Shown here: positions 32,395-44,924 of the stretch, piece by piece
Layout of the letters: every line of letters begins with the position of its first letter
How positions within the stretch are numbered: the first letter of the stretch is position 1
NCBI GenBank assembly: GCA_963764045.1
Contig: CAVXQW010000013.1
Span: 40 to 64,039 of the forward strand
Direction of reading: 5' to 3'
Origin: an uncultured bacterium
GTDB lineage: Bacteria; Desulfobacterota; Deferrimicrobia; Deferrimicrobiales; Deferrimicrobiaceae
Length of the DNA: 64,000 nucleotides
The notes under the pieces: generated by a model
What the model was told of the DNA's origin: nothing
Seen by the model: only the letters and a program-made list of their open reading frames with translations
The model's database searches: none
Program-made: the position numbers and the translations under genes

Positions 32395-34173
32395 TCAGAA
32401 GTTGCGGGTGATGAACCCGCCGATGAAGTCCCTGTCGCCCAGCAACTGGTTGGTCCCCCAATAATTCGTGTAATTGAGCCCCGCCTGCCAGTGGGTCGGG
32501 GCGCTCTGGTTGAAGAGGATGTACGTGTTCATCGATTTGGCGCCTTGCAGGTAGTTCGCGGTGAGCGTCGGCGTATTCCCCTTGACGGCCTGGAAATAGG
32601 TGACTCCCGGGACGACGGTCCACCCCTTGATGAGCTTGTTGTCGTAGGCCCAGTTGAAGTCGACGGTGTAGCCGTACGAGTACTCATCCCCTACTCCGGC
32701 GATGGTGTTGTAGGTCGTGGGCCCCGCCCCCGCATCCCCCGTGACGGTGCCGTCCTTCCAGAACCCGTAGCCGGCCGCGGCGGCCTGCATCACCGGGACC
32801 CCGCCTATGTTACGGTAGTAACGCCTGCCGGGGCTGACCCCGGGGTATCGAATCCCCACGGCCTCGCCGGTGAACGTGGCGGTGTCCGCCCTCAGTATAT
32901 CAAGGAACCATCCGTGATCTCCCGGGGTCAGGCTCAGGATCCCCGTCAGGTGCATCTGGTACTTCTCCGTGTCGATATACATGGGGCAATTGACCGGGGG
33001 GGCCGCGTTAAAGATTGCATCCAGCGAGCCACCCGGGTTGTAACAGCTGGTCAGTGCGATGGCATCCTTCGGACGGTACGACAGCTCCCAGCCGACCGCC
33101 CAGTTCCCCACGGGGAAGTTTGCGCTGACCCCGTACAGCTTCCGGTTCTCCAGGTACTTCCACTGGGCCTCTCCATCGGCCAGCAAGCTCAGGACCGGCA
33201 TCTTGTCGTGGTAGTTCATGAAGTAGACCCCGAGGTCCAGGGAGACGCCTTCCGGCTTGTAGTGCATCGAGACGCCGTACTGCCCGCTGTTCTTCGGAGT
33301 CAGGTCGTTCGCGAAGGCGACAGGGATGGTGTTGGCGGGGAACGCCGGATCGGAAGCCGGGTCCAGTCCGCCGAAGTTCACGAAGTCGGGGGAAGAGGGG
33401 TTGCCATTAAGATACAGCGACTGACTGCCCTTTCCCAGAATGTCCGCGACGGAAAAATAGGTGCCGACGGGAGGCAACCGGTTCCGGTTCCAGTAGAATT
33501 GATAGTACGCCTCGGCATTGACGCCGTGGCCCAACCCCGACGCGACGCTGAGGATCGGAGCCGGGATGACGGCCTCTTTCAGCTGCGTTCCCGGAATCGA
33601 GAGCTTCTGGAAGTCCAGCGAGTTGGTGGCGTTGATCCCGCCGAGCGCGAAGATGCTCTCTCCCCAGTTGATGACCTGGTTCCCCAACCGGACACGGGCC
33701 CGCTGGGAGCCGATGTTCATGTCCTTGCTCACCCAGAGGTCCAGAAGCTGGATGTCCCGTGCGACCTGGTCTTTCGCCGCTGGAGAGAGCTCCGTCCGCT
33801 GGGTGTCCGTCGCCTTGTAGTCGTAGAGCGCGGTCGCCCGCGCCATGAACTTGATATTATCCGGGAACTTCAACAGCAGCTCCGGGGTGAACTTCAGATA
33901 CGTGGTGAAGAGGTTGTACTTGTCGTAGTTCAGGTTGCCGTCGTCGCCGTTGGAGGAAACAGCGGTGTTCGCCGCGGAGTTTATCCTGGGGTCGCCGATC
34001 AGGTTGGGGTTCTGGTTGACCATCCGCATCCCGGCGCCGAGGGTCAGCTGCATGTCCAGGGATCCCTTGACGGAATCGCTGGCTTCGAACTGGAACGCGT
34101 GCGCCGCGCCGGCGCACAGCACCATCATGCAAACCGGCATCCACAAACTCTTGTAGAGGGCTCTCATTCGCAT
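32395..34173 (-). CDS. DUF1302-family outer-membrane beta-barrel protein
   Basis: Signal peptide MRMRALYKSLWMPVCMMVLCAGAAHA. LGNQVINWGESIF motif and a C-terminal ..GGFITRNF aromatic terminus. ATG 34173 carries an AAGGAG Shine-Dalgarno inside ORF 32395-34473. Confidence 0.75.
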   Translation of the reverse strand: MRMRALYKSLWMPVCMMVLCAGAAHAFQFEASDSVKGSLDMQLTLGAGMRMVNQNPNLIGDPRINSAANTAVSSNGDDGNLNYDKYNLFTTYLKFTPELLLKFPDNIKFMARATALYDYKATDTQRTELSPAAKDQVARDIQLLDLWVSKDMNIGSQRARVRLGNQVINWGESIFALGGINATNSLDFQKLSIPGTQLKEAVIPAPILSVASGLGHGVNAEAYYQFYWNRNRLPPVGTYFSVADILGKGSQSLYLNGNPSSPDFVNFGGLDPASDPAFPANTIPVAFANDLTPKNSGQYGVSMHYKPEGVSLDLGVYFMNYHDKMPVLSLLADGEAQWKYLENRKLYGVSANFPVGNWAVGWELSYRPKDAIALTSCYNPGGSLDAIFNAAPPVNCPMYIDTEKYQMHLTGILSLTPGDHGWFLDILRADTATFTGEAVGIRYPGVSPGRRYYRNIGGVPVMQAAAAGYGFWKDGTVTGDAGAGPTTYNTIAGVGDEYSYGYTVDFNWAYDNKLIKGWTVVPGVTYFQAVKGNTPTLTANYLQGAKSMNTYILFNQSAPTHWQAGLNYTNYWGTNQLLGDRDFIGGFITRNF

Positions 34174-34180
34174 CGCTCCT

Positions 34181-35563
34181 TTACCGCTCACTGATCGAGC
34201 GAAGGTTTTCACCCGTGTACCAGTCCGACTTGAAACGCGGCGAGTTTGACTCCACGTAATACACCATGTCCTTGCCCGTCCCGATCGTGCTCTGGTCGCA
34301 GACGTACCGTCCGCTGACCAGGTCGTACGCGACGAACGGGAAGTGGTCGAACGTGCCGCCAAGCTCCCAGATCGGGATCGGGTACCCTTCCTCGACCTTC
34401 CACAGGCCTCCCTTGGCATCGTACTGGTCGGCGATGAGCGCCAGATAGGTATCCTCGTCGAAATAGAAGACACGCTTCGGCATGGTATGCCGCATCCCCT
34501 TCTTCAGGGTCGCCTCCACCATCCACACCCGGTGCAGCTCGTACCGCCGGCTCTCGTTGGCCAGGTGCTTCAGCTGGAGCACGTCGTGCAGCGGCTTCCG
34601 GAAGTCGTACATGCCGAAGCTGTTGTACGGGACGTACATCTCCTTCTTGCCGACGATCTTCCAGTCGAACCGGTCGGGTCGCCCCAGGAAGACCCACGCC
34701 GTGTCGAGCGGGTACTGGTTTTCGAACCCGATCTGCGGAGCGTCGTAGGCGTAAGCGGGCAGACGACGCACGCGGCGCTGCCCAGGGAAGTAGAAGAAGG
34801 CCTCGCGGTCCTTGTTCGTATAGTCGCAGATGAAGATCCGCTGCCCGGCGAGCGCCGCCGGGCTGTCGTACCCGAAGTCGATGCAATACATGAGATCGCT
34901 CGCCTGCTTCAGGGTGTTGGTCCCCTTTTTCCCCCAGGGGTAGAACGTCGACTGCGGGCCGGCCGGGGCGAGCCACTCCGTACTGCCGGGGCGTGGCGAG
35001 ACCGCCGTGGTGGTTCTGGGCATTTCGTTCCCGATTCCCTTGTACCGCATCAGGAAGTTCCAGATGATTTCCGACCCGTCTTTCGGAAACGGAAACAGGA
35101 TGCCGGGAAGATCCGCGGCCAGCAGATCGGTGCCGTCCTTGCTGAGCTTGGCGGCCCCCGCCGCGTTTTTCCGGATGTTCGCCTCGATCCAGTCCGGGTA
35201 ACCCGCGTTCCGGTGGGACGGGTACACGTCCATCCGGTACCCCTGGGTCTGCTTGACCATCTGCACCTGCCCCGGGCTCAGCTTGTCCTTGTACTTGTCG
35301 ACGTTGGAGGCGTCGATGGAGAAGAGCGGCTTTTCATCCTTGAATTTCCAGTAATCGCCGCGGTATTTCCCCAGGGACCACCCCGGCAGGGGTACGTCCT
35401 TCCCGTCCCATGCGGGGATCGTCCCGTCCTTGTTTCCCGCCTTTTCGGCGCCTGCGTAGTTCAGGTCTTTCCCCAGCCGGGCCACCTCCTGGGGCGTTGC
35501 CCCCCATGCCGTGACCGCTGCCGCCGCGATGAGCGTGACCACAACCAGAACCCGTTTCATCAT
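34181..35563 (-). CDS. DUF1329-family periplasmic/outer-membrane (LolA-like) protein
   Basis: Signal peptide MMKRVLVVVTLIAAAAVTAWG. GTIPAWDG.., ..FYFPGQRRVRRLP.., ..YELHRVWMVEA are typical of the family. GGGAGGAG Shine-Dalgarno. Confidence 0.75.
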   Translation of the reverse strand: MMKRVLVVVTLIAAAAVTAWGATPQEVARLGKDLNYAGAEKAGNKDGTIPAWDGKDVPLPGWSLGKYRGDYWKFKDEKPLFSIDASNVDKYKDKLSPGQVQMVKQTQGYRMDVYPSHRNAGYPDWIEANIRKNAAGAAKLSKDGTDLLAADLPGILFPFPKDGSEIIWNFLMRYKGIGNEMPRTTTAVSPRPGSTEWLAPAGPQSTFYPWGKKGTNTLKQASDLMYCIDFGYDSPAALAGQRIFICDYTNKDREAFFYFPGQRRVRRLPAYAYDAPQIGFENQYPLDTAWVFLGRPDRFDWKIVGKKEMYVPYNSFGMYDFRKPLHDVLQLKHLANESRRYELHRVWMVEATLKKGMRHTMPKRVFYFDEDTYLALIADQYDAKGGLWKVEEGYPIPIWELGGTFDHFPFVAYDLVSGRYVCDQSTIGTGKDMVYYVESNSPRFKSDWYTGENLRSISER

Positions 35564-35670
35564 CTCCTCCCCCCCACTGTCTGGATTACTTCCCGACCCA
35601 TTAAACCCAACGATTCGCCGAACAAATCCCGGAAGCTCGTTTCGAGTGAAAACCGATGCGAGCAAAAACA

Positions 35671-35685
35671 GCAAACTTCGTTCCA
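35671..35685 (-). promoter_or_regulatory. sigma54 (-24/-12)-like promoter upstream of the DUF1329 operon
   Basis: The minus strand reads TGGAACGAAGTTTGC (GG-N10-GC). It lies about 110 nt upstream of ATG 35563. Confidence 0.5.
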
Positions 35686-35810
35686 ATGCTGTGCTACGAC
35701 CGCTACCAAAAGCAAAATATCATAAAAAACTTGCGTATAGCAACGTTAATTCTGTTTATAAAACAACAGTCGCTGCTCGCCTCCGCCCTTGTTCATCATG
35801 GTGATTCCCT

Positions 35811-35867: not shown

Positions 35868-36606
35868 TCACCCATACCGTTCCCTCAATATTTCCCTCAA
35901 GTTATCCAGGTCGGCGTCGGGGGACTCTTCGAGCAGGCATGCGATCGCGCCCGAGACCCTCGCGGCGGCGAAGCTGTTCCCCCGGAAATTCCTCTCCCGG
36001 GGCAGACCCGGAAGGGAGCGGGGCCACGGGGAGGCAAGACATTCGCACGGATCGCCGTGACGGTACCTCAGCGTGTCTTCCCCGAGGCGCCCGTCCCCCT
36101 TTACGCCGATGACCTCGTCGTACGAGGCCGGTACGCTCTCCCCCTTCGATCCGTTCCGCGCGGACGCCACCAGGATGATCCCCGCCCGCGCCGCGTCGCG
36201 GCAAAGGCGGCGCAGCGAGGAAGCGTCCTGCGCCGCCTGCCATCCCAAGGCTGAGATTCACCACCCTTGCACCCGCCTCCAGAGCGTACGACAACGCGCC
36301 CTCCAGGACATCCGGCGTCGTGGCGAGCGCGCCATTGAAGATCTTGAGGGCGAAGAGATCGGCCTCGGGCGCCACGTGACGGATCACCGCGGCGATGGCG
36401 GTTCCGTGGCCGGTCGTGTCCTCGTAGTTCGACCCCCGATGGACCGAGCCGTCCTCCCCGCGGAAGATCCCGGCCCCTTCGATCCTCCCCCCGACATGGG
36501 AGTGACGCGGGTTGACGCCCGAGTCGACGACGACGACGCGGACCCCGAACCCTGCCGGCACACCGGGAGGGCGAACGCCCCAGGGGATCGCGCAACGCCT
36601 ACGCAC
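35868..36606 (-). pseudogene. qhpE: subtilisin-like S8 serine protease QhpE (leader peptidase of QhpC), one frameshift near 36240
   Basis: Asp VRVVVVDSGV and His TTGHGTAIAAVI are in ORF 35902-36669. Ser FRGNSFAAARVSG is in ORF 35868-36248. The putative GTG start at 36606 overlaps the qhpF stop. Small size (about 245 aa) and no signal peptide, as expected for QhpE. Confidence 0.7.
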
Positions 36607-38338
36607 GGACGTCTTCCTCCAAAGTCCGCGTTTCGTCGGCGCAGACGCGAAGGAACGATTTGTACGCACCCCGTTGCCGCATCAATTCCCCGTGCGTCCC
36701 AAGGTGGCTGATCCGCCCGCCCGAAAGGACCACGATCAGATCCGCATCCCGGACGGCGTGGATCCGATGGGTCACGATCAAGGTCGTCTTCCCCTCCATC
36801 AACTCCGCGATCGCGCGCCGGACACGATCTTCCGAGAGGAGGTCGAGGGAGGAAGTCGCCTCGTCGAGGATGAGGATCTCCGGAGCGCGGAGGAACGCCC
36901 GGGCAAGAGCCACCCGCTGCCGCTGCCCCGCGGAAAGGGATAACCCCCGCTCTCCGACGATGGTCGAAAGGCCGAGCGGCAGGGAGCGGACGAACTCCGT
37001 CAAGTCGGCGTTCGCGACGGCATCGGCGATCCGCGCGGGGCCGGCGTCGGGTGTCCCGTACCGGATGTTCTCCTCGAGGGTCCCTTGAAAAAGGTACGGC
37101 TCGGTGGAGACCTGTGCGATCCGCCGCCGGAGCGTGGCGCGGCGAAGCCGCCCCAACGGGACTCCGTCAAGCCGGATCTCCCCCCCTTGCGGCTCGTAGT
37201 AGCGGAGGAGAAGGTCCACGAGCGTCGATTTTCCGACGCCGCTCTCCCCGACGAGCGCCACCGTCTTTCCGGCGGGGAGGGTCAGCGACAGGCGGTCGAG
37301 GATACGGGCCTCGCCGCCGTACGCGAAGACGACCCCGTCAAAGACGATCCCCTCCTTCAGGGAGACGAACTCTTCCGCCCCTTCCGGGTCCTTCTCCACG
37401 GGAACGTCGAAAAACTCGAACACGCGCGCAAGCGAAGCCCTCCCTTTCCGCAACGCCGCGTACTGTCCAAGGAGGTTCTGGATCGGCGCGATCACCTGCA
37501 TCTGGAAGGCGGTAAATGCCACAAGGGTCCCGACGGAGATCGCCCCGTCCCGGACCATCGAGCCGCCGTAGAGGAAAGCGAGCGTGGCCGAGCACCCCAG
37601 CACGAACGAGGGGATCCCGCGGGACAGGGAGAAGATCGTCTGGAACCGGAGAACGGAGGCCACCAGCGACAGGTTCTCCTCCTCGAACCTTCGCCGTTCC
37701 TGGCATTCCGTGGCGCTGGAACGCACCAGTCGTATTCCCGTGAAGGTATCGATGATGCGGGTCCCCACGGCGGCGTTCTTCTCCCGGAGCTCGCGGCTCA
37801 TTCCCGTGATGACGTTGCGGGTCAGCCAGAGGCCCAGCACGCCCAACGGGACGAGGACGTTGCTCACGAGGAAGAGGGACCAGGACATGGCGACGAGGAT
37901 GGCGGAGGCGACGACGAGCCGGACGGAGCTGGTGACGAAGGCCATCGGGACGTCCACGAGAATCCCCTGGACCTCCACCATGTCGTTGTTGAGCCGCGCG
38001 ACGATCTCCCCTACCCGCGTCCGCCCGAAGAATCGCATCTCGGCGCGCTCCAGATGATCGAAGAGGGCGACCCGCATGGCGACGAGGATCTTCGCAGACC
38101 CTCGCGTGTAGAGGTAGCTGCTGACGCCGCCGAGGACCATCCCCGCGGCGGCGAAAAGAACCATGGTGAGGAGAAGGGGGGGCAGCGCCGCCCAGTTTCC
38201 GCGCAGGATCACGTCGTCCACCAGCCTCTTCGACAGGAAAGGGGCGTACAGGGAAGCCGCCGTCGCGAGAAGGGACAGTGCGAAGGTCGCGGCGAGAATT
38301 CCCCGCTGGGGCCGAACGAATCTCCACAAAGAGACCAT
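36599..38338 (-). CDS. qhpF: ABC exporter, fused TMD-NBD (QhpF-like peptide exporter)
   Basis: 579 aa starting at ATG 38338 (MVSLWRFVRPQRGIL..). Six-TM exporter domain followed by GESGVGKSTL, LSAGQRQRVALARA and ILILDEATSSLD. The longer ORF 36599-39274 is an antisense read-through. Confidence 0.85.
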   Translation of the reverse strand: MVSLWRFVRPQRGILAATFALSLLATAASLYAPFLSKRLVDDVILRGNWAALPPLLLTMVLFAAAGMVLGGVSSYLYTRGSAKILVAMRVALFDHLERAEMRFFGRTRVGEIVARLNNDMVEVQGILVDVPMAFVTSSVRLVVASAILVAMSWSLFLVSNVLVPLGVLGLWLTRNVITGMSRELREKNAAVGTRIIDTFTGIRLVRSSATECQERRRFEEENLSLVASVLRFQTIFSLSRGIPSFVLGCSATLAFLYGGSMVRDGAISVGTLVAFTAFQMQVIAPIQNLLGQYAALRKGRASLARVFEFFDVPVEKDPEGAEEFVSLKEGIVFDGVVFAYGGEARILDRLSLTLPAGKTVALVGESGVGKSTLVDLLLRYYEPQGGEIRLDGVPLGRLRRATLRRRIAQVSTEPYLFQGTLEENIRYGTPDAGPARIADAVANADLTEFVRSLPLGLSTIVGERGLSLSAGQRQRVALARAFLRAPEILILDEATSSLDLLSEDRVRRAIAELMEGKTTLIVTHRIHAVRDADLIVVLSGGRISHLGTHGELMRQRGAYKSFLRVCADETRTLEEDVRA

Positions 38339-38346
38339 CCGCTTTC

Positions 38347-39369
38347 TCACGACGCCTCCTCCCGGTAGTAGCACATGTAGCGCGCGTCGCAGAACTTCGG
38401 CGTTTTCCGGAGCGCAACAGCCTTGGACGCCGCCTCTTCCCGGGAGGCCCCCCGTTCCACCAGGTCGAGGACCCCGCGAACCATCTGGAGGCCCACGAGC
38501 TTCCGGTAACTCGAGGCGCCGCGTCCGGAGATCTTGATGGAAGTCACTCCCGTGCGGGCGAGGTCGAAGAGCGCGCAGAGCCCGCAGGGGCCGTTCGGGA
38601 TCCCGTCGGGAGTGACCGAATTGCCGCAACCGTTCTGGAACCAGACCCAATCCTTGAACGCGCCCATCAGTTCCCGCGCCCGTTCCTCTTCCTCCCCGGT
38701 CAGGGATCCCTCGGGCTCTTCTCCCAGCGGAAGGAAACGGTGCGGGACGCCCGGGAGCTGCACGCAAAGGGCGCCGACGCTCCGGTGCGTGGTCATGCAG
38801 TACCCTTCCTCGAACACGCACCCTTCGTTCATGACGAACGCTTCCGTCTCCAGCCGGCCCGCCGCCGCATCGCAAAGGGACGCGATGTCCGCCACGCCGA
38901 GACTGCGGGGGAAGATCACCCGACGGACCCCCAGCTCCTCGAGGAAATCGACCATGCCGGGGTTGAGCGCCGCCATCACCGAGCTGGCGTGGACGGAAAG
39001 CGCGGGGAAGGCGCACCGCAGCGCCACGAGGAAGCCCATGTCGGAGACGATGACGCCATCGATGCCGGATTCCCGCGCGAGCCCGCCGATCATGGGCAGG
39101 AGAAGGTCCTGCTGCTCCGGCGTGTAGTAGGGGGCATTGAACGTCACGTGGACGGGGATGCCGAAGGCGTGGGACCGCTCGGTCAGGAGAGAGACGTCGT
39201 CCCGTTGAACGAGGTTCCCCGCCACCGGCCCCCTTCGGTTGAGCCAGAAGGCGCCGCCGTACCGCTTGAGCCACTCGGGGGGGACGTACCCGCAGAAGAA
39301 CTCGCCCGCACCGTTCCCGGCAAGCATCTCCACCTCGTCGGGGTGGCTGACCGGTACGGTGAGCTTCAT
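38347..39369 (-). CDS. U32-family Fe-S protein, UbiU-like
   Basis: MKLTVPVSHPDEVEMLAGNGAGEFFCG.., GIDGVIVSDMGFL, VIFPRSL, Cys pattern EGCVFEEGYC..GALC..GPCGLC, SIKISGRGAS. ATG 39369 overlaps the upstream U32 stop (ATGA). 8 nt separate it from qhpF. Confidence 0.75.
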   Translation of the reverse strand: MKLTVPVSHPDEVEMLAGNGAGEFFCGYVPPEWLKRYGGAFWLNRRGPVAGNLVQRDDVSLLTERSHAFGIPVHVTFNAPYYTPEQQDLLLPMIGGLARESGIDGVIVSDMGFLVALRCAFPALSVHASSVMAALNPGMVDFLEELGVRRVIFPRSLGVADIASLCDAAAGRLETEAFVMNEGCVFEEGYCMTTHRSVGALCVQLPGVPHRFLPLGEEPEGSLTGEEEERARELMGAFKDWVWFQNGCGNSVTPDGIPNGPCGLCALFDLARTGVTSIKISGRGASSYRKLVGLQMVRGVLDLVERGASREEAASKAVALRKTPKFCDARYMCYYREEAS

Positions 39370-40436
39370 CCCGTCGCCCGATCCCCCATGGCCGACATCC
39401 ATGGATGGCTTCCTGCCGGGGCGGGCAGGGATGCCCCGGCTTCCGTGGCCCCGGGCGGAACGGTAATGACGATCCGGTCCACCCGCCGGGAGGAGGAAAT
39501 CCGCCCCAGGATGCTCCCGGTGACGGAGGACGGAACCGCGTGGTAATACGCGTTCCCGAGGTTCAGGAGGTCTTTCTCCGCCCCGTTCCCCCCGGGAACG
39601 GGCAGGCGGAACTCGACGGCGTACTTCCGGCACTCCGACCGGCAAGGAGTGCCGGGGACGAATTTTGCGGCGGATTCCTGGTGCATCGCCCCCAACAGGC
39701 AGGCGCGCCCCATGGTGACGAACAGGTACGGAACGTGAACCGACAGCCTCTCGGACCGGCTCTCCCACTCGTCCGCCTCGAGCGGCTGGAGGAACGGATC
39801 GATTTCCCGGCGCCCGATGCCGTACCGCTCCATCAGGGCCCGGAAACCCGGTGCGAGCTCCCCAGACCGGCAGAGGGCCGCCCGGGCAGACGCCGGCGCC
39901 TGCGGGGAATCGAAATATTCCGCGAGCCGCGGGTCGCGCAGCATCTTGTGCGTCAGGCGGCCCAGGACGATCACGAGCTTCGGGTGGCGGGACCTCAGGC
40001 GGTGGACCGTCCCCCAGTCGCCGGCGACGACCTCGAAGCCCTCCACTCCTTCCAGCGTCCGGACCGCTTTTTCCGCCTTGGCCAGGCCGTCCCGCGACAG
40101 CGGCGGCAGGACGAGGGATAAGGCGACCCGCCCCGCCTGCGCCGCCACGACCCAGGAGCGGATCGCCTTCCCCGTCGGGAGGAGCTGCTCACACGTCTCG
40201 CTGCCGACGTACACCCGCGACGGAACGGCCCCGGGGAGGTGCCGGGGGAACGTTTCCGCGAGCATGGCGCGAATATCGGGCGTCACGGCGGCGCGCAGCG
40301 TCTCGTCAAGGGAGACCTCCCCGCGAAGAACCGAGGGCAGCGGGCCGGCGAGAAAGGGGAAGGAGATCCCCACTTCCACGCCGTGTTCCGCGCCCCCCCG
40401 CGGAGACGCCTCCCGGTGATGCCGGTTCGGGAGCAA
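39366..40436 (-). CDS. U32-family Fe-S protein, UbiV-like
   Basis: RVYVGSETCEQLLP, FEVVAGDWGTVHRL, LFVTMGRACLLG..GTPCRSECRKY (C..C-x19-C-x3-C), LLNLGNAYYH. The true start may be an internal GTG near 40379. The ORF start lies 13 nt downstream of the qhpB stop. Confidence 0.7.
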   Translation of the reverse strand: MLPNRHHREASPRGGAEHGVEVGISFPFLAGPLPSVLRGEVSLDETLRAAVTPDIRAMLAETFPRHLPGAVPSRVYVGSETCEQLLPTGKAIRSWVVAAQAGRVALSLVLPPLSRDGLAKAEKAVRTLEGVEGFEVVAGDWGTVHRLRSRHPKLVIVLGRLTHKMLRDPRLAEYFDSPQAPASARAALCRSGELAPGFRALMERYGIGRREIDPFLQPLEADEWESRSERLSVHVPYLFVTMGRACLLGAMHQESAAKFVPGTPCRSECRKYAVEFRLPVPGGNGAEKDLLNLGNAYYHAVPSSVTGSILGRISSSRRVDRIVITVPPGATEAGASLPAPAGSHPWMSAMGDRATG

Positions 40437-40449
40437 GCGGCCGGGCCCC

Positions 40450-41532
40450 CTACCGATGCTGGACGCGGAAGTGCGTGAGGACCGCGTCCCCGGGGGTACT
40501 GATGTGCTTCAGCAGCTTCATCGTTCCCGTGTCGTAGATCAGGATCGAGTCGCCGCCGCCGCCCAGGTACACCTTCTTCCCGTCGGAGCTGATCTGGATC
40601 GTGTAGTAGCTCTTGTCGACGTCGGCGGTGGCCAGCAACTCGTTCGTCGCGAAGTCCCTCTTCTCGACCTTGTTGAGCACCGTGTAGTAATACTTCCGGT
40701 CGGGGGAGACGACCGCCGAGAACTGGTTGTAGAGAGGACCGATGTCGGTCACGAGCCGCATCGACCCTTCCGTGCTCTTCTTCCTGAGGTCGATGGTGTA
40801 GTACCCCTGGTACGTGAGGTTGTTCGAGGTGTTCAGGCTGCCGACCAGGATCATCGCCATCCCGGACTGGTCGTAAAGCCGCCAGATGTTCAGGGAGATC
40901 TGCGGGTCGACGCCGGTCGTGGTCGGGTGGGCAAGCCCGAGGAAGTTCACCCGCTTCCCCGTCATGGGGTCGTAGACGAAGACGTCGCGCCCCGTGATAT
41001 AGAACTCGCTCCCGTCGTAGCCGAAGAAGATGTTCGTGCAGCCGCGCGGGACCTCGATCTCCTTGACGACCTTCGGAGGATCGACCCCGACGTCGAATAC
41101 GATCACTTCGGGCGTCATGTCGACGATCTCGTCCGAAAGCCACCGCTGCCGCAGGGAGAGGGCGTAAAGAAGGTTTGGGTGCGCCGGGTTGATCTCGATG
41201 TCGAGGGCCCGGACCTTGACGTCGCCCGATCCGGTGCGGAACGTGCGGACCACCTTCTTCCCCGCCAGGTCGAGCTGCTCGATCTGCTGCCCCCAGTCGG
41301 TGATGGTGAAGATCTTGTCGAGGTCCCTCGGGTCCCAGGTGAAATTGGTGACCTTCTTCCCCTTGGTTTCGATCGTGGCGACGATCTCGTCCTTGTCGCC
41401 GTCGATGACGTTGAACTTGTTGTGGAGCATCCCCTGCAGGAGGATGTCCTTGCCGAGTGCCGGGGCGTTGCCCGAGGCGAGGAGCAGGGCCGTCCCGAGC
41501 AGCACCAACGCGAAAAAGGCCGTTCTCTTCAT
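40450..41532 (-). CDS. qhpB: quinohemoprotein amine dehydrogenase beta subunit (7-bladed propeller)
   Basis: Signal peptide MKRTAFFALVLLGTALLLASG, size about 360 aa, repeated blade-like segments, and its position after qhpC. The assignment rests mainly on context plus family resemblance. Confidence 0.7.
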   Translation of the reverse strand: MKRTAFFALVLLGTALLLASGNAPALGKDILLQGMLHNKFNVIDGDKDEIVATIETKGKKVTNFTWDPRDLDKIFTITDWGQQIEQLDLAGKKVVRTFRTGSGDVKVRALDIEINPAHPNLLYALSLRQRWLSDEIVDMTPEVIVFDVGVDPPKVVKEIEVPRGCTNIFFGYDGSEFYITGRDVFVYDPMTGKRVNFLGLAHPTTTGVDPQISLNIWRLYDQSGMAMILVGSLNTSNNLTYQGYYTIDLRKKSTEGSMRLVTDIGPLYNQFSAVVSPDRKYYYTVLNKVEKRDFATNELLATADVDKSYYTIQISSDGKKVYLGGGGDSILIYDTGTMKLLKHISTPGDAVLTHFRVQHR

Positions 41533-41585: not shown

Positions 41586-41909
41586 CTACCACTCCGGCTT
41601 GACGACCTTGAGCTTCATCCAGTCCTTCATCGCCCGGGTGCAGTCGGCGTTCCAGTCCGGGTTGTTGTACGTGTCCGGCGCCTGTCCGGGCCACCAGCAG
41701 TACATGTCGGTGGTGCCGAAGAGATCCGTCTCGATCGGCGTGCAGAGCTGTTTCGTGGAGCCGGTCCAGTCGATCTCGTACCCGGGGTTGAACACGGACG
41801 TGCAGGTGTGCATGAACGGGATGCTCCCCTGCGCCTCCACGACCGGGAGTTCCGCCTTTCCCTTTTCGATCTTCTTCCCCTTGCGGTTGACCCCTTTCAG
41901 GTGCTTCAT
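41586..41909 (-). CDS. qhpC: quinohemoprotein amine dehydrogenase gamma-subunit precursor (RiPP-like, CTQ-bearing)
   Basis: 107 aa with a Lys-rich leader MKHLKGVNRKGKKIEKGKAELPVVEAQG. The core CTSVFNPGYEIDW..QLCTPIETDLFGTTDMYCWWPGQAPD matches the CTTSFDPGWEVD..LCQPMEADLYGC.DPCWWPAQV.D pattern. ATGA overlap with qhpD. Confidence 0.85.
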   Translation of the reverse strand: MKHLKGVNRKGKKIEKGKAELPVVEAQGSIPFMHTCTSVFNPGYEIDWTGSTKQLCTPIETDLFGTTDMYCWWPGQAPDTYNNPDWNADCTRAMKDWMKLKVVKPEW

Positions 41910-43321
41910 GCGATCCCCCTTTCGCCGAGCACGGCATCGAGAAACGTCGGCGTTTCGTTTTGTATGCGAACGTAGGTCCGAAGGCCCAGAAGGAACAGCT
42001 CCTTGATCCAGCGGCAATAGTGCGTCGAAGGGGCGAAGAGGTCTCCCTGCCGGAGGTACGCGTCGTGGTAGCACCCCCCGGCGCAGAAGTTCTTCGCCCA
42101 GCAGGCGTCGCATCCGGACTCGCGTCGACGCCTCGCCCCGTCGAGGAACCGGGCGCGGGCATCCGAAGCGATCCCGCGGGACGGGTCGCCCATGGATTCT
42201 CCGACCCCGCAGAGCCGGTGGCACGGGTAGAGAACCCCCGAGGGGTCGGCGGCCAGCATCCCGATCCCCGCCCCGCACGGGTACGGCATCGGGTCCCCGC
42301 GGTGGATCAACCCGAGGATCTGCGTCATGTTCGAGAACGCCGGCATCCGGCGTTCCCGCACGTCGTCGACGTATTCCACGGCCAGATCCCGGAACCCGTC
42401 CAGCACCGCGTCGAGCTCTTCCCCGGTGAGCGCGGTGCGGCTCCCCTCCTTGGCGCTTGCCGGGGCGAATCCCACCTCGTCGAACCCGATGTCCCGGAGG
42501 TGCCGGAACGTCGTTCGCACGTCGACGCCGCCGCTCCCCAGGGTGACGCGCGCCGCCAGCGGATACCCGCCCCGGTTTTCCATCAAGTGCGCTATCCCTC
42601 GCTTCACGTCGTCGTAGGAGCCGCGCCCCGTCGCGTAGGGGCGATTGACGTCGTGAACCTCGCGGGGGCCGTCGACGCTGACGCACACGGAGACGCGGTT
42701 CTCCTTAAGGAACCGCGCGATCTCCGCGGTCAGGAGCGTACCGTTGGTCGTGAGGGAAAAGGAGATCTCCTTCCCTCTAGCCTTGGCCATCGCTCGCGCT
42801 TCGTGAACCGCGACCCGCAGGAGGGGGAAACGGAGGAGCGGCTCCCCCCCGAAGAGGACGACGGACACCTTCCTGACCTCCCCGGAATGGTCGAGCAGGA
42901 ACCCGACGCTCTCGCGGAGCGACTCCGGGGACATCTCCCCCGGCTCCCCTCCCCCGTCCACCGGCGGGACGCACCCTTCCTCGCGGTCCTCGTAGCAGTA
43001 GCGGCACGCGAGGTTGCAGGAGGTCGTCAGCATCAGGACGAGCGTCCGGAGCCGCAAGGGAGGATGGGTGGGCCGGAAAGCCGGCCCGTGTCCCTCGGCG
43101 GGTTCCAGAAGTCGCGCCCGGCGAAGATCCGACAGGATCTCCGCCGGCACGGCGCCGGGATCGGACGATGCAAGGGCGGACAAGGCATCCCGCGCCCCGT
43201 CGTCCATCCGGAACAGTCCCCCGGATTCCGCCGCGTAGAGATACGTCTCCCCTTCCGCCGTGAAACTGCGGTGCGGGAGAAGAGCCGCTTCGACGCCGGA
43301 CCTTCGCGCGATGTTTCCCAT
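41906..43321 (-). CDS. qhpD: radical-SAM/SPASM thioether-forming enzyme QhpD
   Basis: MLTTSCNLACRYCYE, FGGEPLL, and SPASM Cys cluster PCGAGIG..YPCHRLC..GCDACWAKNFCAGGCYH..YCRW. Confidence 0.85.
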   Translation of the reverse strand: MGNIARRSGVEAALLPHRSFTAEGETYLYAAESGGLFRMDDGARDALSALASSDPGAVPAEILSDLRRARLLEPAEGHGPAFRPTHPPLRLRTLVLMLTTSCNLACRYCYEDREEGCVPPVDGGGEPGEMSPESLRESVGFLLDHSGEVRKVSVVLFGGEPLLRFPLLRVAVHEARAMAKARGKEISFSLTTNGTLLTAEIARFLKENRVSVCVSVDGPREVHDVNRPYATGRGSYDDVKRGIAHLMENRGGYPLAARVTLGSGGVDVRTTFRHLRDIGFDEVGFAPASAKEGSRTALTGEELDAVLDGFRDLAVEYVDDVRERRMPAFSNMTQILGLIHRGDPMPYPCGAGIGMLAADPSGVLYPCHRLCGVGESMGDPSRGIASDARARFLDGARRRRESGCDACWAKNFCAGGCYHDAYLRQGDLFAPSTHYCRWIKELFLLGLRTYVRIQNETPTFLDAVLGERGIA

Positions 43322-43337: not shown

Positions 43338-44924
43338 TTACTGGACCGGCCTCTGGACGTACAGAGGGATGGTGGCGAGCAGATAGCCGCGGGCGGACAG
43401 CGTCCCGCCGCCGGGCGCGGCCCAGGAGGCCGTCACCCAGACGTCCCCCATGTTGTTTTCCTGCATGGCCCGTTTCGGGTTGGGGCCTTCGTTCCCCGGG
43501 GTGAAGAGCCCGTTTCCGTCGATCGTCCCGACGAACTCCACGTCGTGGTCCTCGTTGGAACTCGCAAGCTCCACGACGTTCCACGCCGCCGGGACGCGGC
43601 CGATCTCGATGTCGTCCGCGGTGCCCGCGGCGCCGTCGGCGCCCTTGCTGCAGGCCATGGCGTCGAACTGGACGAGCTGCTTCACGGCGTACCCCAGCCC
43701 TCCGGTGCGGGACATCGCGGGGGACGGAACCACCTTGATGTAGTCGACGGCAGTGTAGACCGCGAAGAGCTTGTCTGCCGCAGCGTTCCCGGCTTTTGCG
43801 TTCCGGTACCCAGAGGGGGCCTTGTCGGCGACGTCCACGGTGACCACAACCTTCGTCGGCGTCGCGGAAACGACCTTATTGACGGTCACCCCGTCGCCCA
43901 GGCTCACCTCTTTCGAAAGGCCGGTCCCGACGACCGTCACGGTGGCACCCTTCGTCCCGGCCCGGAGGGCCTTCGGCATCACGGAGAGGATCCTCGGGGA
44001 GCTCCCTGCGAAGGCGCGGGTTTCAACGCCGCGCAGCTCGAAGTGCGGGTCGTCGAACCGGACCCCGGTGAAGGTCGAACCGTCCATGGAGATGTGGAAG
44101 ACTTCGCGGATCGGCTTCCCGGCCAGGGTGCCGGAAGCCCGCCAGGCGTAGCCGCCGTAGAGGGTCGCCTTCCCCTCGATCGGCTGCTTCTCCCCGTTCT
44201 CGAACTCCACCGTTCCGGCGTAGGAATAGAAGGGCTCACCCGTCTTCTTCAACTGGATCTCGCCACTGTACGCGCCTTTCCCGGCCTGGTACCCGGCAAC
44301 GACCCACTTCCCCTCGCCCGCCTTCGGGCGGGAGGAGACCCACTGCTTCCATTCCGGAGTCTCCAGCGGGAACCGTTTCTGCAACTCCTTCACGCAGGCG
44401 GCGAGCGTTTCGTCCCAGTCGAGGACGTCCTGGAGCTGGTAGAGCCACATCGGAAGGACGCCCGAGTGCATGTTGGCGAGTTTCGGCCAGTCTTCCGGGG
44501 CGCGGCGCTGGAGGGCGGTCTTCGCGTAGCTGTGGCACCGCACGCACACGTCGATGATCAACTGGCTGTCGACCTTCTCCTTGGTGTCCCGCTTCTCGAG
44601 GGTGTAGGCGTACGGCGCCACCTCGGCGGGGGCCAGCCCCTGCTTGTCGGAGAAGTAGAGGAGGAGCGATTCCTTCTCCTCCTTGGTGATCGACAGCCCG
44701 TGGATCCGTTTATGGCGCCACAACGTCTCTTCCCACGCTTCCGGCACCTGCCGGAGGTAGGAGATCCTGGAGACGAGTCCCCCGTTGTTCTTGTGGCAGT
44801 CGGTGCACATCTTCAATACCAGGTCGCTGGTGACCGGGATCCCCGTCTCGCCGAGGGCCGCCCACGCCGTCGCCAGCATGAACGCCAGGCCAACGATAAA
44901 ACACAATCCCATCTTCCTTCGCAT
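43338..44924 (-). CDS. qhpA: quinohemoprotein amine dehydrogenase alpha subunit (dihaem cytochrome c + beta domains)
   Basis: Signal peptide, two haem sites CTDCH and CVRCH in the N-terminal about 170 aa, then three beta-sandwich-like domains. 528 aa. Confidence 0.85.
   Translation of the reverse strand: MRRKMGLCFIVGLAFMLATAWAALGETGIPVTSDLVLKMCTDCHKNNGGLVSRISYLRQVPEAWEETLWRHKRIHGLSITKEEKESLLLYFSDKQGLAPAEVAPYAYTLEKRDTKEKVDSQLIIDVCVRCHSYAKTALQRRAPEDWPKLANMHSGVLPMWLYQLQDVLDWDETLAACVKELQKRFPLETPEWKQWVSSRPKAGEGKWVVAGYQAGKGAYSGEIQLKKTGEPFYSYAGTVEFENGEKQPIEGKATLYGGYAWRASGTLAGKPIREVFHISMDGSTFTGVRFDDPHFELRGVETRAFAGSSPRILSVMPKALRAGTKGATVTVVGTGLSKEVSLGDGVTVNKVVSATPTKVVVTVDVADKAPSGYRNAKAGNAAADKLFAVYTAVDYIKVVPSPAMSRTGGLGYAVKQLVQFDAMACSKGADGAAGTADDIEIGRVPAAWNVVELASSNEDHDVEFVGTIDGNGLFTPGNEGPNPKRAMQENNMGDVWVTASWAAPGGGTLSARGYLLATIPLYVQRPVQ

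What the first reader, a model, noticed from the sequence alone, without database searches (positions are those of the whole stretch)
41586..41909. QhpC precursor lacks the canonical CTQ cysteine and has a relocated fourth Cys
Seen in the sequence: in precursor numbering the core has Cys36, Cys56, Cys71 and Cys90, and Trp72-Trp73. Three of the four known cross-link geometries are preserved exactly. C36+9=E45 matches Cys7-Glu16, C56+6=D62 matches Cys27-Asp33, and C71+8=D79 matches Cys41-Asp49. The quinone Trp is C71+2=W73, matching Trp43. The sequence I recall for Paracoccus/Pseudomonas reads ..ADLYGC(A/S)DPCWW.., where that first Cys (Cys37) forms the thioether to Trp43. Here the sequence reads ..TDLFGTTDMYCWW.., with Thr (ACC ACC codons) in that place and a one-residue insertion. 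A Cys codon there would need two substitutions, so this is not a single-base sequencing error. An extra Cys appears 17 residues after the Trp (PDWNADCTRAMKDW). Inference: the cofactor may be cross-linked through a different Cys, or it may be a non-cysteinyl tryptophylquinone. Either would fit a divergent maturation machinery (see the U32 finding).
Basis: partly seen in the sequence, partly recalled or inferred. Interest (0 to 1): 0.7.

Follow-up and report, generated by a model that had tools for sequence, protein, structure and literature searches.

The report
Amine dehydrogenase subunit lacking cofactor cysteine
A small bacterial enzyme subunit that normally builds its quinone cofactor from a tryptophan bonded to one particular cysteine has lost that cysteine in a whole lineage of sediment bacteria yet is strictly conserved, so its cofactor is probably wired differently from every characterised example.

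Summary
Window 41586-41909 (- strand) encodes a 107-aa QhpC, the gamma subunit of quinohemoprotein amine dehydrogenase. Aligned to the crystal-structure chains 1JJU_C and 1JMX_G, Cys7, Cys27, Cys41, their acid partners and Trp43 are all kept. Thr66 replaces the CTQ cysteine Cys37, and the loop is one residue longer.

This is not an error. About 45 independent contigs of the MBNT15/Ca. Deferrimicrobiaceae lineage carry the same Thr-Thr, with synonymous codon variation. All 134 other family cores aligned have Cys at that position.

The interpretation needs two corrections:
- Cys90 is not "relocated". The same position is Cys in 108 of 142 family cores, and those outside the clade also keep Cys37. 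It is a retained, uncharacterised fifth cysteine.
- The U32 pair is not tied to the loss. The same ORF5+U32 pair replaces QhpG in qhp operons of many other lineages, and their QhpC all keep the CTQ cysteine.

Cys90 is the only non-heme, non-ring cysteine invariant in the clade's alpha, beta and gamma subunits, so it is the only possible thiol donor to Trp73. Whether it reaches Trp73 could not be tested, because the AlphaFold model failed. The cofactor may instead be uncross-linked or linked through another residue.

The parts
41586..41909 (-). qhpC: 107-aa precursor of the gamma subunit of quinohemoprotein amine dehydrogenase. Its ATG overlaps the qhpD stop codon (ATGA).
   Evidence: Translation. 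PF08992 76.8 bits against a cut-off of 25. NF037958 94.3 bits against a cut-off of 50. 1JJU_C E 1.6e-18.
41823..41909 (-). Leader peptide, about residues 1-29 (MKHLKGVNRKG...). The boundary is inferred from the canonical mature N-terminus six residues before Cys7.
   Evidence: M1, H3, N8 and K10 are invariant or nearly so across 124 family members. The cleavage site itself is an inference.
41700..41714 (-). Thr66-Thr67-Asp68-Met69-Tyr70: the remodelled cofactor loop. Thr66 occupies the Cys37 position, the loop is one residue longer, and Met69 is specific to the clade.
   Evidence: Column composition.
41691..41699 (-). Cys71-Trp72-Trp73. Cys71 corresponds to Cys41 (partner Asp79). Trp73 corresponds to Trp43, the quinone-forming tryptophan.
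   Evidence: C71 and W73 invariant in the family.
41640..41642 (-). Cys90: the retained family-wide 'fifth cysteine'. It is the only clade-invariant cysteine not committed to a canonical ring or a heme.
41622..41624 (-). Asp96 (Cys90+6), invariant across the family. It is a candidate acceptor of a fourth Cys-Asp thioether, with the same C-x5-D spacing as Cys27-Asp33.
   Evidence: D96 invariant. The cross-link itself is an inference.
41607..41609 (-). Lys101 (Cys90+11). This position is Asp/Glu in 94 of 100 other fifth-Cys sequences and Cys in the multi-Cys subgroup. It is Lys in all clade members.
41589..41594 (-). Clade-specific C-terminal Glu106-Trp107 extension.
   Evidence: a [ED]W tail occurs only in the 7 clade sequences out of 156 family tails. 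W107 is invariant.
41906..43321 (-). qhpD: radical-SAM/SPASM maturase that makes the Cys-Asp/Glu thioethers.
   Evidence: TIGR03906 396 bits, below the cut-off of 453. PF04055.
43338..44924 (-). qhpA: dihaem alpha subunit, with two CXXCH motifs at Cys40/43 and Cys127/130.
   Evidence: TIGR03908 461.8 bits..
40450..41532 (-). qhpB: beta-propeller subunit, divergent.
   Evidence: TIGR03907 127 bits, below the cut-off of 223.
39366..40436 (-). ORF5: conserved partner of the U32 protein. It matches no Pfam or NCBIfam family and may be a remote U32-fold relative.
   Evidence: hhalign against the U32 profile: probability 49.5%, E 1.7e-4.
38347..39369 (-). U32-family protein with weak UbiU/TrhP similarity. 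It stands where QhpG would be expected.
   Evidence: PF01136 E 2.6e-29. UbiU 64.5 bits and TrhP 47.9 bits, both far below cut-off. No QhpG in the window.
36599..38365 (-). qhpF-like ABC exporter.
35868..36669 (-). qhpE: subtilisin-like leader peptidase. In this window it is split by a 1-nt insertion near 36239.

Best explanation
This is a functional, selectively maintained variant of the QHNDH gamma subunit, specific to the MBNT15/Ca. Deferrimicrobiaceae lineage.

Shown:
- The precursor keeps the leader and the three Cys-x(n)-Asp/Glu ring motifs (C36-E45, C56-D62, C71-D79).
- It keeps the catalytic or cross-linked Asp62 and the quinone tryptophan Trp73.
- It sits in a complete qhpA-D-C-B-ORF5-U32-F-E operon.
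- It lacks the cysteine that forms the CTQ thioether in every other family member.

Inferred:
- QhpD installs the three canonical thioether rings.
- The ORF5/U32 pair, which stands in for the missing O2-dependent QhpG here and in many other qhp operons, hydroxylates Trp73.
- QhpE and QhpF then process and export the peptide.
- In the periplasm the dihydroxy-Trp is oxidised to the quinone.

The C4 position of that quinone cannot be capped by the canonical Cys. My preferred mechanism is that Cys90 supplies the thioether instead, giving a Cys-Trp quinone with a new topology (i+17 downstream rather than i-6 upstream). Cys90 is the family's ancestral fifth cysteine. Its usual acidic neighbour at +11 has become Lys in this clade, and it is the only clade-invariant cysteine in any of the three subunits that is not used by a ring or a haem.

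I put about 0.75 on 'functional subunit whose cofactor cannot be the canonical Cys37-Trp43 CTQ'. I put about 0.35-0.4 on Cys90 being the donor.
For: - Family membership and alignment to solved structures.
- Loss of Cys37 is clade-wide. It persists to a sister group whose QhpD and QhpB are only 57% identical, while the QhpC core is almost unchanged. Synonymous changes far outnumber non-synonymous ones.
- The operon is conserved in all clade loci.
- No QhpG was found in the 64-kb window or in any clade locus. The probe was a QhpG verified against PDB 7CTQ.
- The ORF5+U32 pair also lies in other qhp operons that lack QhpG.
- Cys90 is invariant (TGC in 13 of 13 sequences).
- The +11 position is D/E in 94 of 100 fifth-Cys sequences against 9 of 34 without the fifth Cys. 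It is Cys in all 7 multi-Cys peptides and Lys in the clade. This suggests positions 90 and 101 are in contact, and that the clade has freed Cys90 from its usual partner.
- There is no conserved extra Cys in QhpB (Cys165 is Val in L024) or in QhpA (Cys177 and Cys425 vary within the clade).
- Oozeki et al. 2021 (PMC7876137) report that QhpG does not form the CTQ thioether. They propose that final oxidation occurs after export, and that the loop bearing Trp43 is mobile. A late capture of the quinone by a different thiol is therefore conceivable.
Against: - No structural evidence places Cys90 near Trp73 C4. The AlphaFold2 model was unusable (pLDDT 49).
- Cys90 is homologous to a cysteine that coexists with Cys37 in most of the family. 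There it must have another role.
- Asp96 at +6 is invariant and has the same spacing as the known Cys27-Asp33 ring. Cys90 may simply be locked in a fourth QhpD ring, leaving no free thiol.
- The +11 covariation is confounded by phylogeny, and several fifth-Cys sequences have T, Q or N there.
- The clade-specific Met69, the loop insertion and the terminal Trp107 point to other possible solutions.
- qhpE is frameshifted in this particular window.
Confidence: 0.4

Rival explanations
1. Tryptophylquinone with no cysteine cross-link. QhpD makes four rings (C36-E45, C56-D62, C71-D79, C90-D96) as it may in all fifth-Cys QhpCs, so no thiol is left. Trp73 becomes a 6,7-quinone whose C4 is unsubstituted. 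The C71-D79 ring holds it in place and the remodelled Thr-Thr-Asp-Met-Tyr loop shields it.
For: - Asp at Cys90+6 is invariant in 124 sequences and has the same C-x5-D spacing as Cys27-Asp33.
- Every fifth-Cys sequence has an acid at +6.
- The local C-x-x-A-x-K-D-W motif is unchanged in the clade.
- The loop around position 37 is remodelled and strictly conserved.
- Uncross-linked quinone cofactors exist, for example TPQ in copper amine oxidases (general knowledge).
Against: - Asp96 is equally invariant in sequences with no fifth Cys, so its conservation does not show it is a cross-link acceptor.
- An indole-6,7-quinone with a free C4 should be open to Michael addition by the amine substrate. 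All known tryptophylquinones (TTQ, CTQ) are substituted at C4 (general knowledge).
- The +11 acid covaries with the fifth Cys, while +6 does not.
Confidence: 0.3
2. The quinone is cross-linked through a residue other than cysteine that the clade has gained. Candidates are Met69 in the cofactor loop (a sulfonium link as in the KatG Met-Tyr-Trp adduct), Lys101 or Lys104 (an amine adduct as in LTQ), or the new C-terminal Trp107 (a TTQ-like Trp-Trp link).
For: - Met69 and the one-residue insertion lie four residues before Trp73, and Met69 is ATG in 13 of 13 clade sequences. That column is T/D/S/G/P elsewhere.
- The [ED]W C-terminal tail is found only in the clade, in 7 of 156 tails.
- Lys101 replaces a conserved acid.
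- There are chemical precedents for Met, Lys and Trp adducts to oxidised aromatic rings (general knowledge).
Against: - There is no direct evidence for any of these links.
- No MauG-like enzyme for Trp-Trp coupling was seen among the operon genes scanned.
- Tyr70 is Phe in some members, so a KatG-like triad is unlikely.
- A thiolate (Cys90) would out-compete these nucleophiles if it were nearby.
Confidence: 0.15
3. No quinone is made. The subunit is a cross-linked structural or redox-inactive peptide, or the operon has a different catalytic chemistry.
For: - QhpG is absent.
- QhpB, QhpD and QhpE score below their NCBIfam cut-offs.
- qhpE is frameshifted in this window.
- A quinone-less gamma subunit can still assemble into the QHNDH complex in a qhpG mutant (PMC7876137).
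Against: - Trp73, Asp62 and both haem motifs of QhpA are invariant.
- The whole operon, including the ORF5/U32 pair, is conserved and under purifying selection.
- The same ORF5/U32 pair accompanies otherwise canonical QhpC in other lineages.
- qhpE is intact in the other clade loci.
Confidence: 0.1
4. Artefact: a sequencing or assembly error, or a pseudogene, produces an apparent loss of the cysteine.
For: The window carries at least one probable 1-nt error or mutation, in qhpE. Several database entries for this clade are frameshifted fragments (P0008-P0013).
Against: - About 45 independent contigs from different studies have the identical Thr-Thr pattern.
- Two substitutions would be needed to make a Cys codon.
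- The Thr codons vary synonymously, and the core shows a strong excess of synonymous changes.
Confidence: 0.01

Closest known systems
QHNDH gamma subunit (QhpC) of Paracoccus denitrificans and Pseudomonas putida (PDB 1JJU/1PBY chain C, 1JMX/1JMZ chain G), which carries CTQ (Cys37-Trp43) and three Cys-Asp/Glu thioethers
   Same: Same Pfam and NCBIfam family. Same leader motif. Cys7-Glu16, Cys27-Asp33 and Cys41-Asp49 spacings are identical. Trp42-Trp43 is kept. Same operon partners QhpA, QhpB, QhpD, QhpE and QhpF.
   Different: Thr replaces Cys37. There is a one-residue insertion in the 37-41 loop (Asp-Met-Tyr for Asp-Pro) and a one-residue deletion between Asp49 and Trp57. Cys is present at position 61. 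The C-terminus has an extra Glu-Trp. There is no QhpG; an ORF5+U32 pair stands in its place.
Uncharacterised 'five-cysteine' QhpC subfamily (Acidobacteriota and many metagenomic lineages, e.g. P0127, P0083, L072, L087, L095)
   Same: It shares the fifth cysteine in the C-x-x-A-x-K-D-W motif. It gives the highest-scoring non-clade hits to the query (44-51% identity). Some members also have the ORF5+U32 pair.
   Different: All members keep the CTQ cysteine, and nearly all have Asp/Glu at +11 from the fifth Cys where the clade has Lys. The role of the fifth Cys is unknown in any organism.
TTQ in methylamine dehydrogenase and CTQ in LodA/GoxA oxidases
   Same: These are protein-derived tryptophan-6,7-quinones whose C4 is capped by a second side chain. 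They show that the capping residue can differ between enzymes (general knowledge; PMC7876137 discussion).
   Different: The protein folds and maturation enzymes are unrelated (MauG; LodB/GoxB). No sequence relationship was tested or is expected.
U32-family O2-independent hydroxylases (UbiU/UbiV, TrhP, RlhA)
   Same: The operon's U32 protein matches PF01136 and weakly matches the UbiU and TrhP models. It comes with a conserved partner, as UbiU does with UbiV.
   Different: Scores are far below the equivalog cut-offs (64.5 against 440 bits). The partner's homology to U32 is only weakly supported. No activity on a peptidyl tryptophan is known, and no paper in the library links U32 with tryptophylquinone.

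Membership tests
QhpC / QH-AmDH_gamma (PF08992, NF037958) | Profile-HMM score above the curated cut-off | tested here: met
   PF08992 76.8 bits (cut-off 25). NF037958 94.3 bits (cut-off 50).
QhpC / QH-AmDH_gamma (PF08992, NF037958) | N-terminal leader with the conserved M-x-H...N-x-K motif that QhpD recognises | tested here: met
   M1 and H3 invariant; N8 and K10 at least 90% conserved in 124 sequences. The query has MKHLKGVNRKG.
QhpC / QH-AmDH_gamma (PF08992, NF037958) | Three Cys with acid partners at +9, +6 and +8 (Cys7-Glu16, Cys27-Asp33, Cys41-Asp49) | tested here: met
   C36/E45, C56/D62 and C71/D79 align exactly to 1JJU_C and 1JMX_G. Only the motifs were tested, not the bonds.
QhpC / QH-AmDH_gamma (PF08992, NF037958) | Quinone-forming Trp two residues after Cys41 | tested here: met
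   W73 is invariant in the family.
QhpC / QH-AmDH_gamma (PF08992, NF037958) | CTQ cysteine four residues before Cys41 (Cys37) | tested here: not met
   Thr66 stands at that column. It is Cys in 134 of 134 non-clade cores and Thr in all clade members.
QhpC / QH-AmDH_gamma (PF08992, NF037958) | Encoded between qhpD and qhpB, with qhpA, qhpE and qhpF in the same operon | tested here: met
Canonical qhp maturation system (qhpABCDEFG) | QhpG, the FAD-dependent peptidyl-Trp dihydroxylase | tested here: not met
   tblastn with a QhpG verified against PDB 7CTQ (E 2e-106) finds nothing in the window or in the clade loci.
CTQ-bearing proteins (cofactor class) | Covalent Cys S-gamma to Trp C4 thioether on a Trp-6,7-quinone | not testable with these tools
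   This needs mass spectrometry or a structure. The AlphaFold2 model was unusable (pLDDT 49). Cys90 is the only candidate thiol.
Five-cysteine QhpC subfamily (informal) | Cys at the position of 1JJU Ala61, in the C-x-x-A-x-[KR]-D-W motif | tested here: met
   Cys90. The column is Cys in 108 of 142 cores.
Five-cysteine QhpC subfamily (informal) | Asp/Glu eleven residues after the fifth Cys | tested here: not met
   Lys101 in all clade members, against D/E in 94 of 100 others.
Peptidase U32 / UbiU-UbiV-type hydroxylases (for the neighbouring gene 38347-39369) | PF01136 match; equivalog-level match to UbiU, UbiV, TrhP or RlhA | tested here: inconclusive
   PF01136 E 2.6e-29. UbiU scores 64.5 bits against a cut-off of 440, and TrhP 47.9 against 534. 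It is a family member but not an equivalog.

The most novel reading that the evidence does not exclude
The MBNT15/Deferrimicrobiaceae enzyme carries a protein-derived cofactor that is chemically new. This would be a tryptophan-6,7-quinone with either no cross-link or a cross-link through a non-cysteine residue (Met69, a lysine, or the new C-terminal Trp107). It would be made without oxygen by a U32-type hydroxylase pair. A less radical version is a Cys-Trp quinone formed from a cysteine 17 residues downstream of the Trp, which is a new cross-link topology.
Probability: 0.4. Interest if true: 0.85.

Novelty: new variant of a known kind. Interest (0 to 1): 0.62.

Why it matters
Only a handful of protein-derived quinone cofactors are known: TPQ, LTQ, TTQ and CTQ. 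In every tryptophylquinone described, the C4 position is capped by a second side chain, and that cap is thought to be part of how the cofactor is formed and protected.

This clade is a natural, strongly conserved enzyme that keeps the quinone tryptophan and the three cage thioethers but has dropped the capping cysteine. It offers a ready-made test of whether the cap is essential, whether another residue can substitute, or whether a new cofactor exists.

The survey produced two further results:
- Most QhpC sequences carry an uncharacterised fifth cysteine that the two crystallised enzymes lack.
- An ORF5+U32 pair replaces the oxygen-dependent QhpG in many qhp operons. This bears on how the cofactor is made without oxygen.

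All three points can be tested directly by expressing one operon and running mass spectrometry on an 8-9 kDa peptide.

Tried and rejected
1. AlphaFold2 on the QhpC precursor with a 124-sequence alignment gave a mean pLDDT of 49 and pTM of 0.25. It was unusable for the Cys90-Trp73 distance, and the tool returns no coordinates anyway.

2. I tried to read the structure papers for gamma-subunit geometry (Datta 2001, Satoh 2002, Nakai 2015). None is held in the library. The supplements of Oozeki 2021 contain nothing on residue 61.

3. Mutual information between the fifth-Cys column and all other columns was diffuse and dominated by subfamily phylogeny, so it was no use as a contact predictor. Only the +11 position is discussed, with that caveat.

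4. Neighbour-joining trees of QhpD and the ABC exporter, built to find the sister group of the clade, disagreed in topology. Both are compatible with retention of the fifth Cys, but the ancestor cannot be named.

5. Inter-subunit cysteine donor: rejected.
   - QhpB's single Cys165 is Val in the deep sister L024.
   - QhpA's non-haem Cys177 and Cys425 vary within the clade.

6. A second qhpC copy in the window: none found by an HMM search of all six frames.

7. The 511-aa gene upstream of qhpA in the Acidobacteria loci was considered as a QhpG substitute. It looks like a polytopic membrane protein with no family or PDB match, so it was dropped.

8. Contexts of several fifth-Cys representatives (P0014, P0018, P0025, P0070) lay on contigs too short to be informative.

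Full report
**What is at the coordinates**

The reverse strand of window 41586-41909 encodes a 107-residue peptide:

MKHLKGVNRKGKKIEKGKAELPVVEAQGSIPFMHTCTSVFNPGYEIDWTGSTKQLCTPIETDLFGTTDMYCWWPGQAPDTYNNPDWNADCTRAMKDWMKLKVVKPEW

It passes the curated thresholds of both family models for the gamma subunit of quinohemoprotein amine dehydrogenase (QHNDH):
- PF08992: 76.8 bits against a cut-off of 25.
- NF037958: 94.3 bits against a cut-off of 50.

Its ATG overlaps the stop codon of the radical-SAM gene upstream. The surrounding minus-strand genes form a qhp operon:

| Gene | Window coordinates | Note |
|---|---|---|
| qhpA | 43338-44924 | dihaem alpha subunit |
| qhpD | 41906-43321 | radical-SAM maturase |
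| qhpC | 41586-41909 | this finding |
| qhpB | 40450-41532 | beta-propeller subunit |
| ORF5 | 39366-40436 | no family match |
| U32 | 38347-39369 | U32-family protein |
| ABC exporter | 36599-38365 | qhpF-like |
| qhpE | 35868-36669 | subtilisin-like |

**Checking the observation**

- Cys36, Cys56 and Cys71 correspond to Cys7, Cys27 and Cys41.
- Their acid partners lie at +9, +6 and +8.
- Trp73 corresponds to Trp43.
- The stretch dlfgTTdmyCWW aligns to dlygC(a/s)dp-CWW. Thr66 therefore sits on the CTQ cysteine Cys37, with a one-residue insertion.
- Cys90 aligns to Ala61 of 1JJU_C.
- Codons 66 and 67 are ACC ACC.

**Is it real and is it selected?**

A word-indexed search of 5.8 billion proteins found only close relatives (75-92% identity), and all have the same pattern. 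A scan of one genome per species found ten loci. All are annotated as Deltaproteobacteria or Ca. Deferrimicrobium/Deferrimicrobiaceae MAGs, which is the MBNT15 lineage. They are 89-97% identical in QhpC and share the operon order.

A deep sister group (L024/L025) has QhpD and QhpB only 57% identical to the window's. Its QhpC core is still nearly unchanged, including Thr-Thr-Asp-Met-Tyr and Cys90. Twenty-four further metagenome loci are the same.

The codon evidence points to purifying selection:
- Codons 66 and 67 vary only synonymously (ACC/ACG).
- Across the 83-codon core, the 9 short-read genome loci differ from the window at 7-14 synonymous and 0-2 non-synonymous codons.

Sequencing error and pseudogene status are excluded.

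**How unusual is the loss?**

An exhaustive HMMER scan of 1.84 billion cluster representatives returned 69 clusters. A profile search returned 1016 proteins, of which the best 120 were inspected.

I aligned 142 full cores, including the two PDB sequences. The Cys37 column is Cys in all 134 non-clade sequences and Thr in the 8 clade sequences.

Two aberrant relatives were seen:
- P0070 is a singleton on a 1.2-kb contig that lacks Cys37 and also Asp33.
- P0066 is a 557-aa fusion that lacks Cys41.

**The 'relocated' cysteine**

The same alignment shows that the column of Cys90 is Cys in 108 of 142 cores. That is 100 of the 134 sequences that keep Cys37. Only the Paracoccus/Pseudomonas-type subfamily lacks it, and that is the only subfamily that has been characterised biochemically.

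The closest non-clade hits to the query are five-cysteine sequences. Neighbour-joining trees of QhpD and the ABC exporter do not agree on a sister group. In both trees, however, retention of this Cys is the more parsimonious history.

Cys90 is therefore an inherited fifth cysteine of unknown function, not a new or moved one.

Two candidate partners for it emerge from the sequences.
- **Asp at +6** is invariant in the whole family and has the same spacing as the known Cys27-Asp33 ring. It is also invariant where the fifth Cys is absent, so its conservation is not informative.
- **The residue at +11** is Asp/Glu in 94 of 100 fifth-Cys sequences, against 9 of 34 without the fifth Cys. It is Cys in all seven peptides of a multi-cysteine subgroup (P0042, L027, L073 twice, L084, L089, L100). 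It is Lys in every clade member.

The +11 pattern suggests that positions 90 and 101 are in contact, and that the clade has lost the usual partner of Cys90. This inference is confounded by phylogeny.

**Other features specific to the clade**
- Met69 and the one-residue insertion in the cofactor loop.
- A one-residue deletion between Asp79 and Trp86.
- A C-terminal [Glu/Asp]-Trp extension found in none of 149 other family tails.

**The maturation machinery**

I took a QhpG from a canonical Hydrogenophaga flava locus and verified it against PDB 7CTQ (E 2e-106). It finds nothing in the 64-kb window or in any clade locus.

ORF5 and the U32 protein are conserved as a pair in all clade loci. The U32 protein matches PF01136. 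It matches the UbiU and TrhP models only weakly, far below their cut-offs. ORF5 has no family or PDB match. It shows a weak profile-profile similarity to the U32 family (probability 49.5%, E 1.7e-4 over 78 columns).

I then searched metagenome contigs with the ORF5 alignment. The ORF5+U32 pair also lies inside qhp operons of many other lineages, again with no QhpG. Those operons encode three kinds of QhpC:

| QhpC type | Loci |
|---|---|
| Canonical four-Cys | L083, L085/86, L104/106 |
| Five-Cys | L072, L087, L093, L095 |
| Multi-Cys | L027, L073, L084, L089, L100 |

All of these keep the CTQ cysteine. In L073 it is displaced by a two-residue insertion. The U32 pair is therefore a widespread alternative to QhpG and is not specifically coupled to the loss of Cys37. 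No paper in the searchable library mentions U32 together with tryptophylquinone.

**Could another subunit donate the cysteine?**

No.
- QhpB has a single Cys (Cys165), and it is Val in the deep sister L024.
- The two non-haem cysteines of QhpA vary within the clade. The four haem-binding cysteines are conserved across the family.
- The window holds no second qhpC.

Cys90 is thus the only clade-invariant cysteine in the three subunits that is not committed to a canonical ring or a haem.

**Mechanism**

Background from Oozeki et al. 2021 (PMC7876137):
- QhpD forms the three thioethers in the cytoplasm.
- QhpG dihydroxylates Trp43 but does not form the quinone or the Cys37 link.
- The authors propose that final oxidation follows export.
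- The loop bearing Trp43 is mobile.
- A quinone-less gamma subunit still assembles into the complex.

By inference, the clade's peptide is ringed by QhpD, hydroxylated by the ORF5/U32 pair, cleaved, exported and oxidised. The C4 position cannot receive the canonical Cys. I weight the options as follows:

| Option | Probability |
|---|---|
| Cys90 supplies the thioether | about 0.35-0.4 |
| Cys90 is locked to Asp96 in a fourth ring and the quinone has no Cys link | about 0.3 |
| Another clade-specific residue (Met69, Lys101/104, Trp107) caps C4 | about 0.15 |
| No quinone is made | about 0.1 |

The structural test that would separate these could not be run. The AlphaFold2 model of the peptide was disordered (pLDDT 49), and the structure papers are not in the library.

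**Host context**

MBNT15/Ca. Deferrimicrobium genomes are predicted to be facultative anaerobes of anoxic, iron-rich sediments and peat (PMC9386147). That fits an oxygen-independent route to the cofactor, although it proves nothing.

**Verdict**

It is wrong that the fourth Cys is relocated and wrong that the U32 pair explains the loss. This is a new variant of a known enzyme. There is a reasonable chance (about 0.4) that its cofactor is chemically new, and a further chance that it is a CTQ with a new topology.

Noticed in passing
window 35868-36669 (- strand), insertion near 36239: qhpE, the leader peptidase, is split into two overlapping reading frames by a single-base insertion (GGGATGGCAGGCGG against GGGATGG-AGGCGG in L002, L003, L004 and L008). 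The gene is in one frame in the other clade loci. I could not decide whether this is an assembly error or a real inactivation.
   Followed up: partly
window 38347-40436 (- strand); loci L027, L072, L073, L083-L087, L089, L093, L095, L100, L104, L106: The ORF5+U32 gene pair sits inside qhp operons of many unrelated lineages that lack QhpG, including operons with fully canonical QhpC. It looks like a general, undescribed alternative to the O2-dependent Trp dihydroxylase. L026 has the same pair without any qhp genes.
   Followed up: partly
family-wide; window residue Cys90 (41640-41642): About three quarters of QhpC sequences (108 of 142 cores) carry a fifth cysteine that the two crystallised enzymes lack. 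It co-occurs with Asp/Glu at +11 (94 of 100), or with Cys at +11 in a multi-Cys subgroup. This suggests a fourth cross-link that has not been characterised in any organism.
   Followed up: partly
L027 3873-7802; similar in L084, L089: This is a very divergent qhp-like operon. It encodes a 91-aa QhpC-like peptide with 8 cysteines. Its 'alpha' protein is only 292 aa, with just a weak match to domain IV, no haem-domain match on record and no CXXCH motif in its sequence. An extra 374-aa gene is also present. It may be a haem-less relative of QHNDH.
   Followed up: no
L073 921-1673: Two tandem QhpC-like precursor genes lie in one operon. In both, the CTQ-position cysteine is six rather than four residues before the Cys-x-Trp motif.
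   Followed up: no
L011 1688-2527 (also L012): A 279-aa ORF just upstream of a five-Cys qhpC begins with the same leader as the QhpC precursor (MDHLKAINQKARR...). No qhpD is adjacent. It may be a second, much larger substrate or a decoy that carries the leader.
   Followed up: no
P0066 (557 aa) and P0070 / L023: P0066 is a QhpC-like N-terminus, lacking Cys41, fused to a roughly 450-residue unrelated region. P0070 is a singleton QhpC-like peptide that lacks both Cys37 and Asp33 and has extra cysteines (GCHC).
   Followed up: no
window 32395-35686 (- strand): A DUF1329 + DUF1302 gene pair directly follows qhpE. The synteny is conserved in the clade loci that extend that far (L001-L004, L008, L010). 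The pair may belong to the same functional unit, for example substrate uptake at the outer membrane.
   Followed up: no
L017/L018 (Acidobacteria, 6-Mb contig), +/-10 kb around qhpC: This five-Cys qhp operon has neither QhpG nor the ORF5/U32 pair within 10 kb. Its Trp hydroxylase is either encoded elsewhere or is of a third kind.
   Followed up: no
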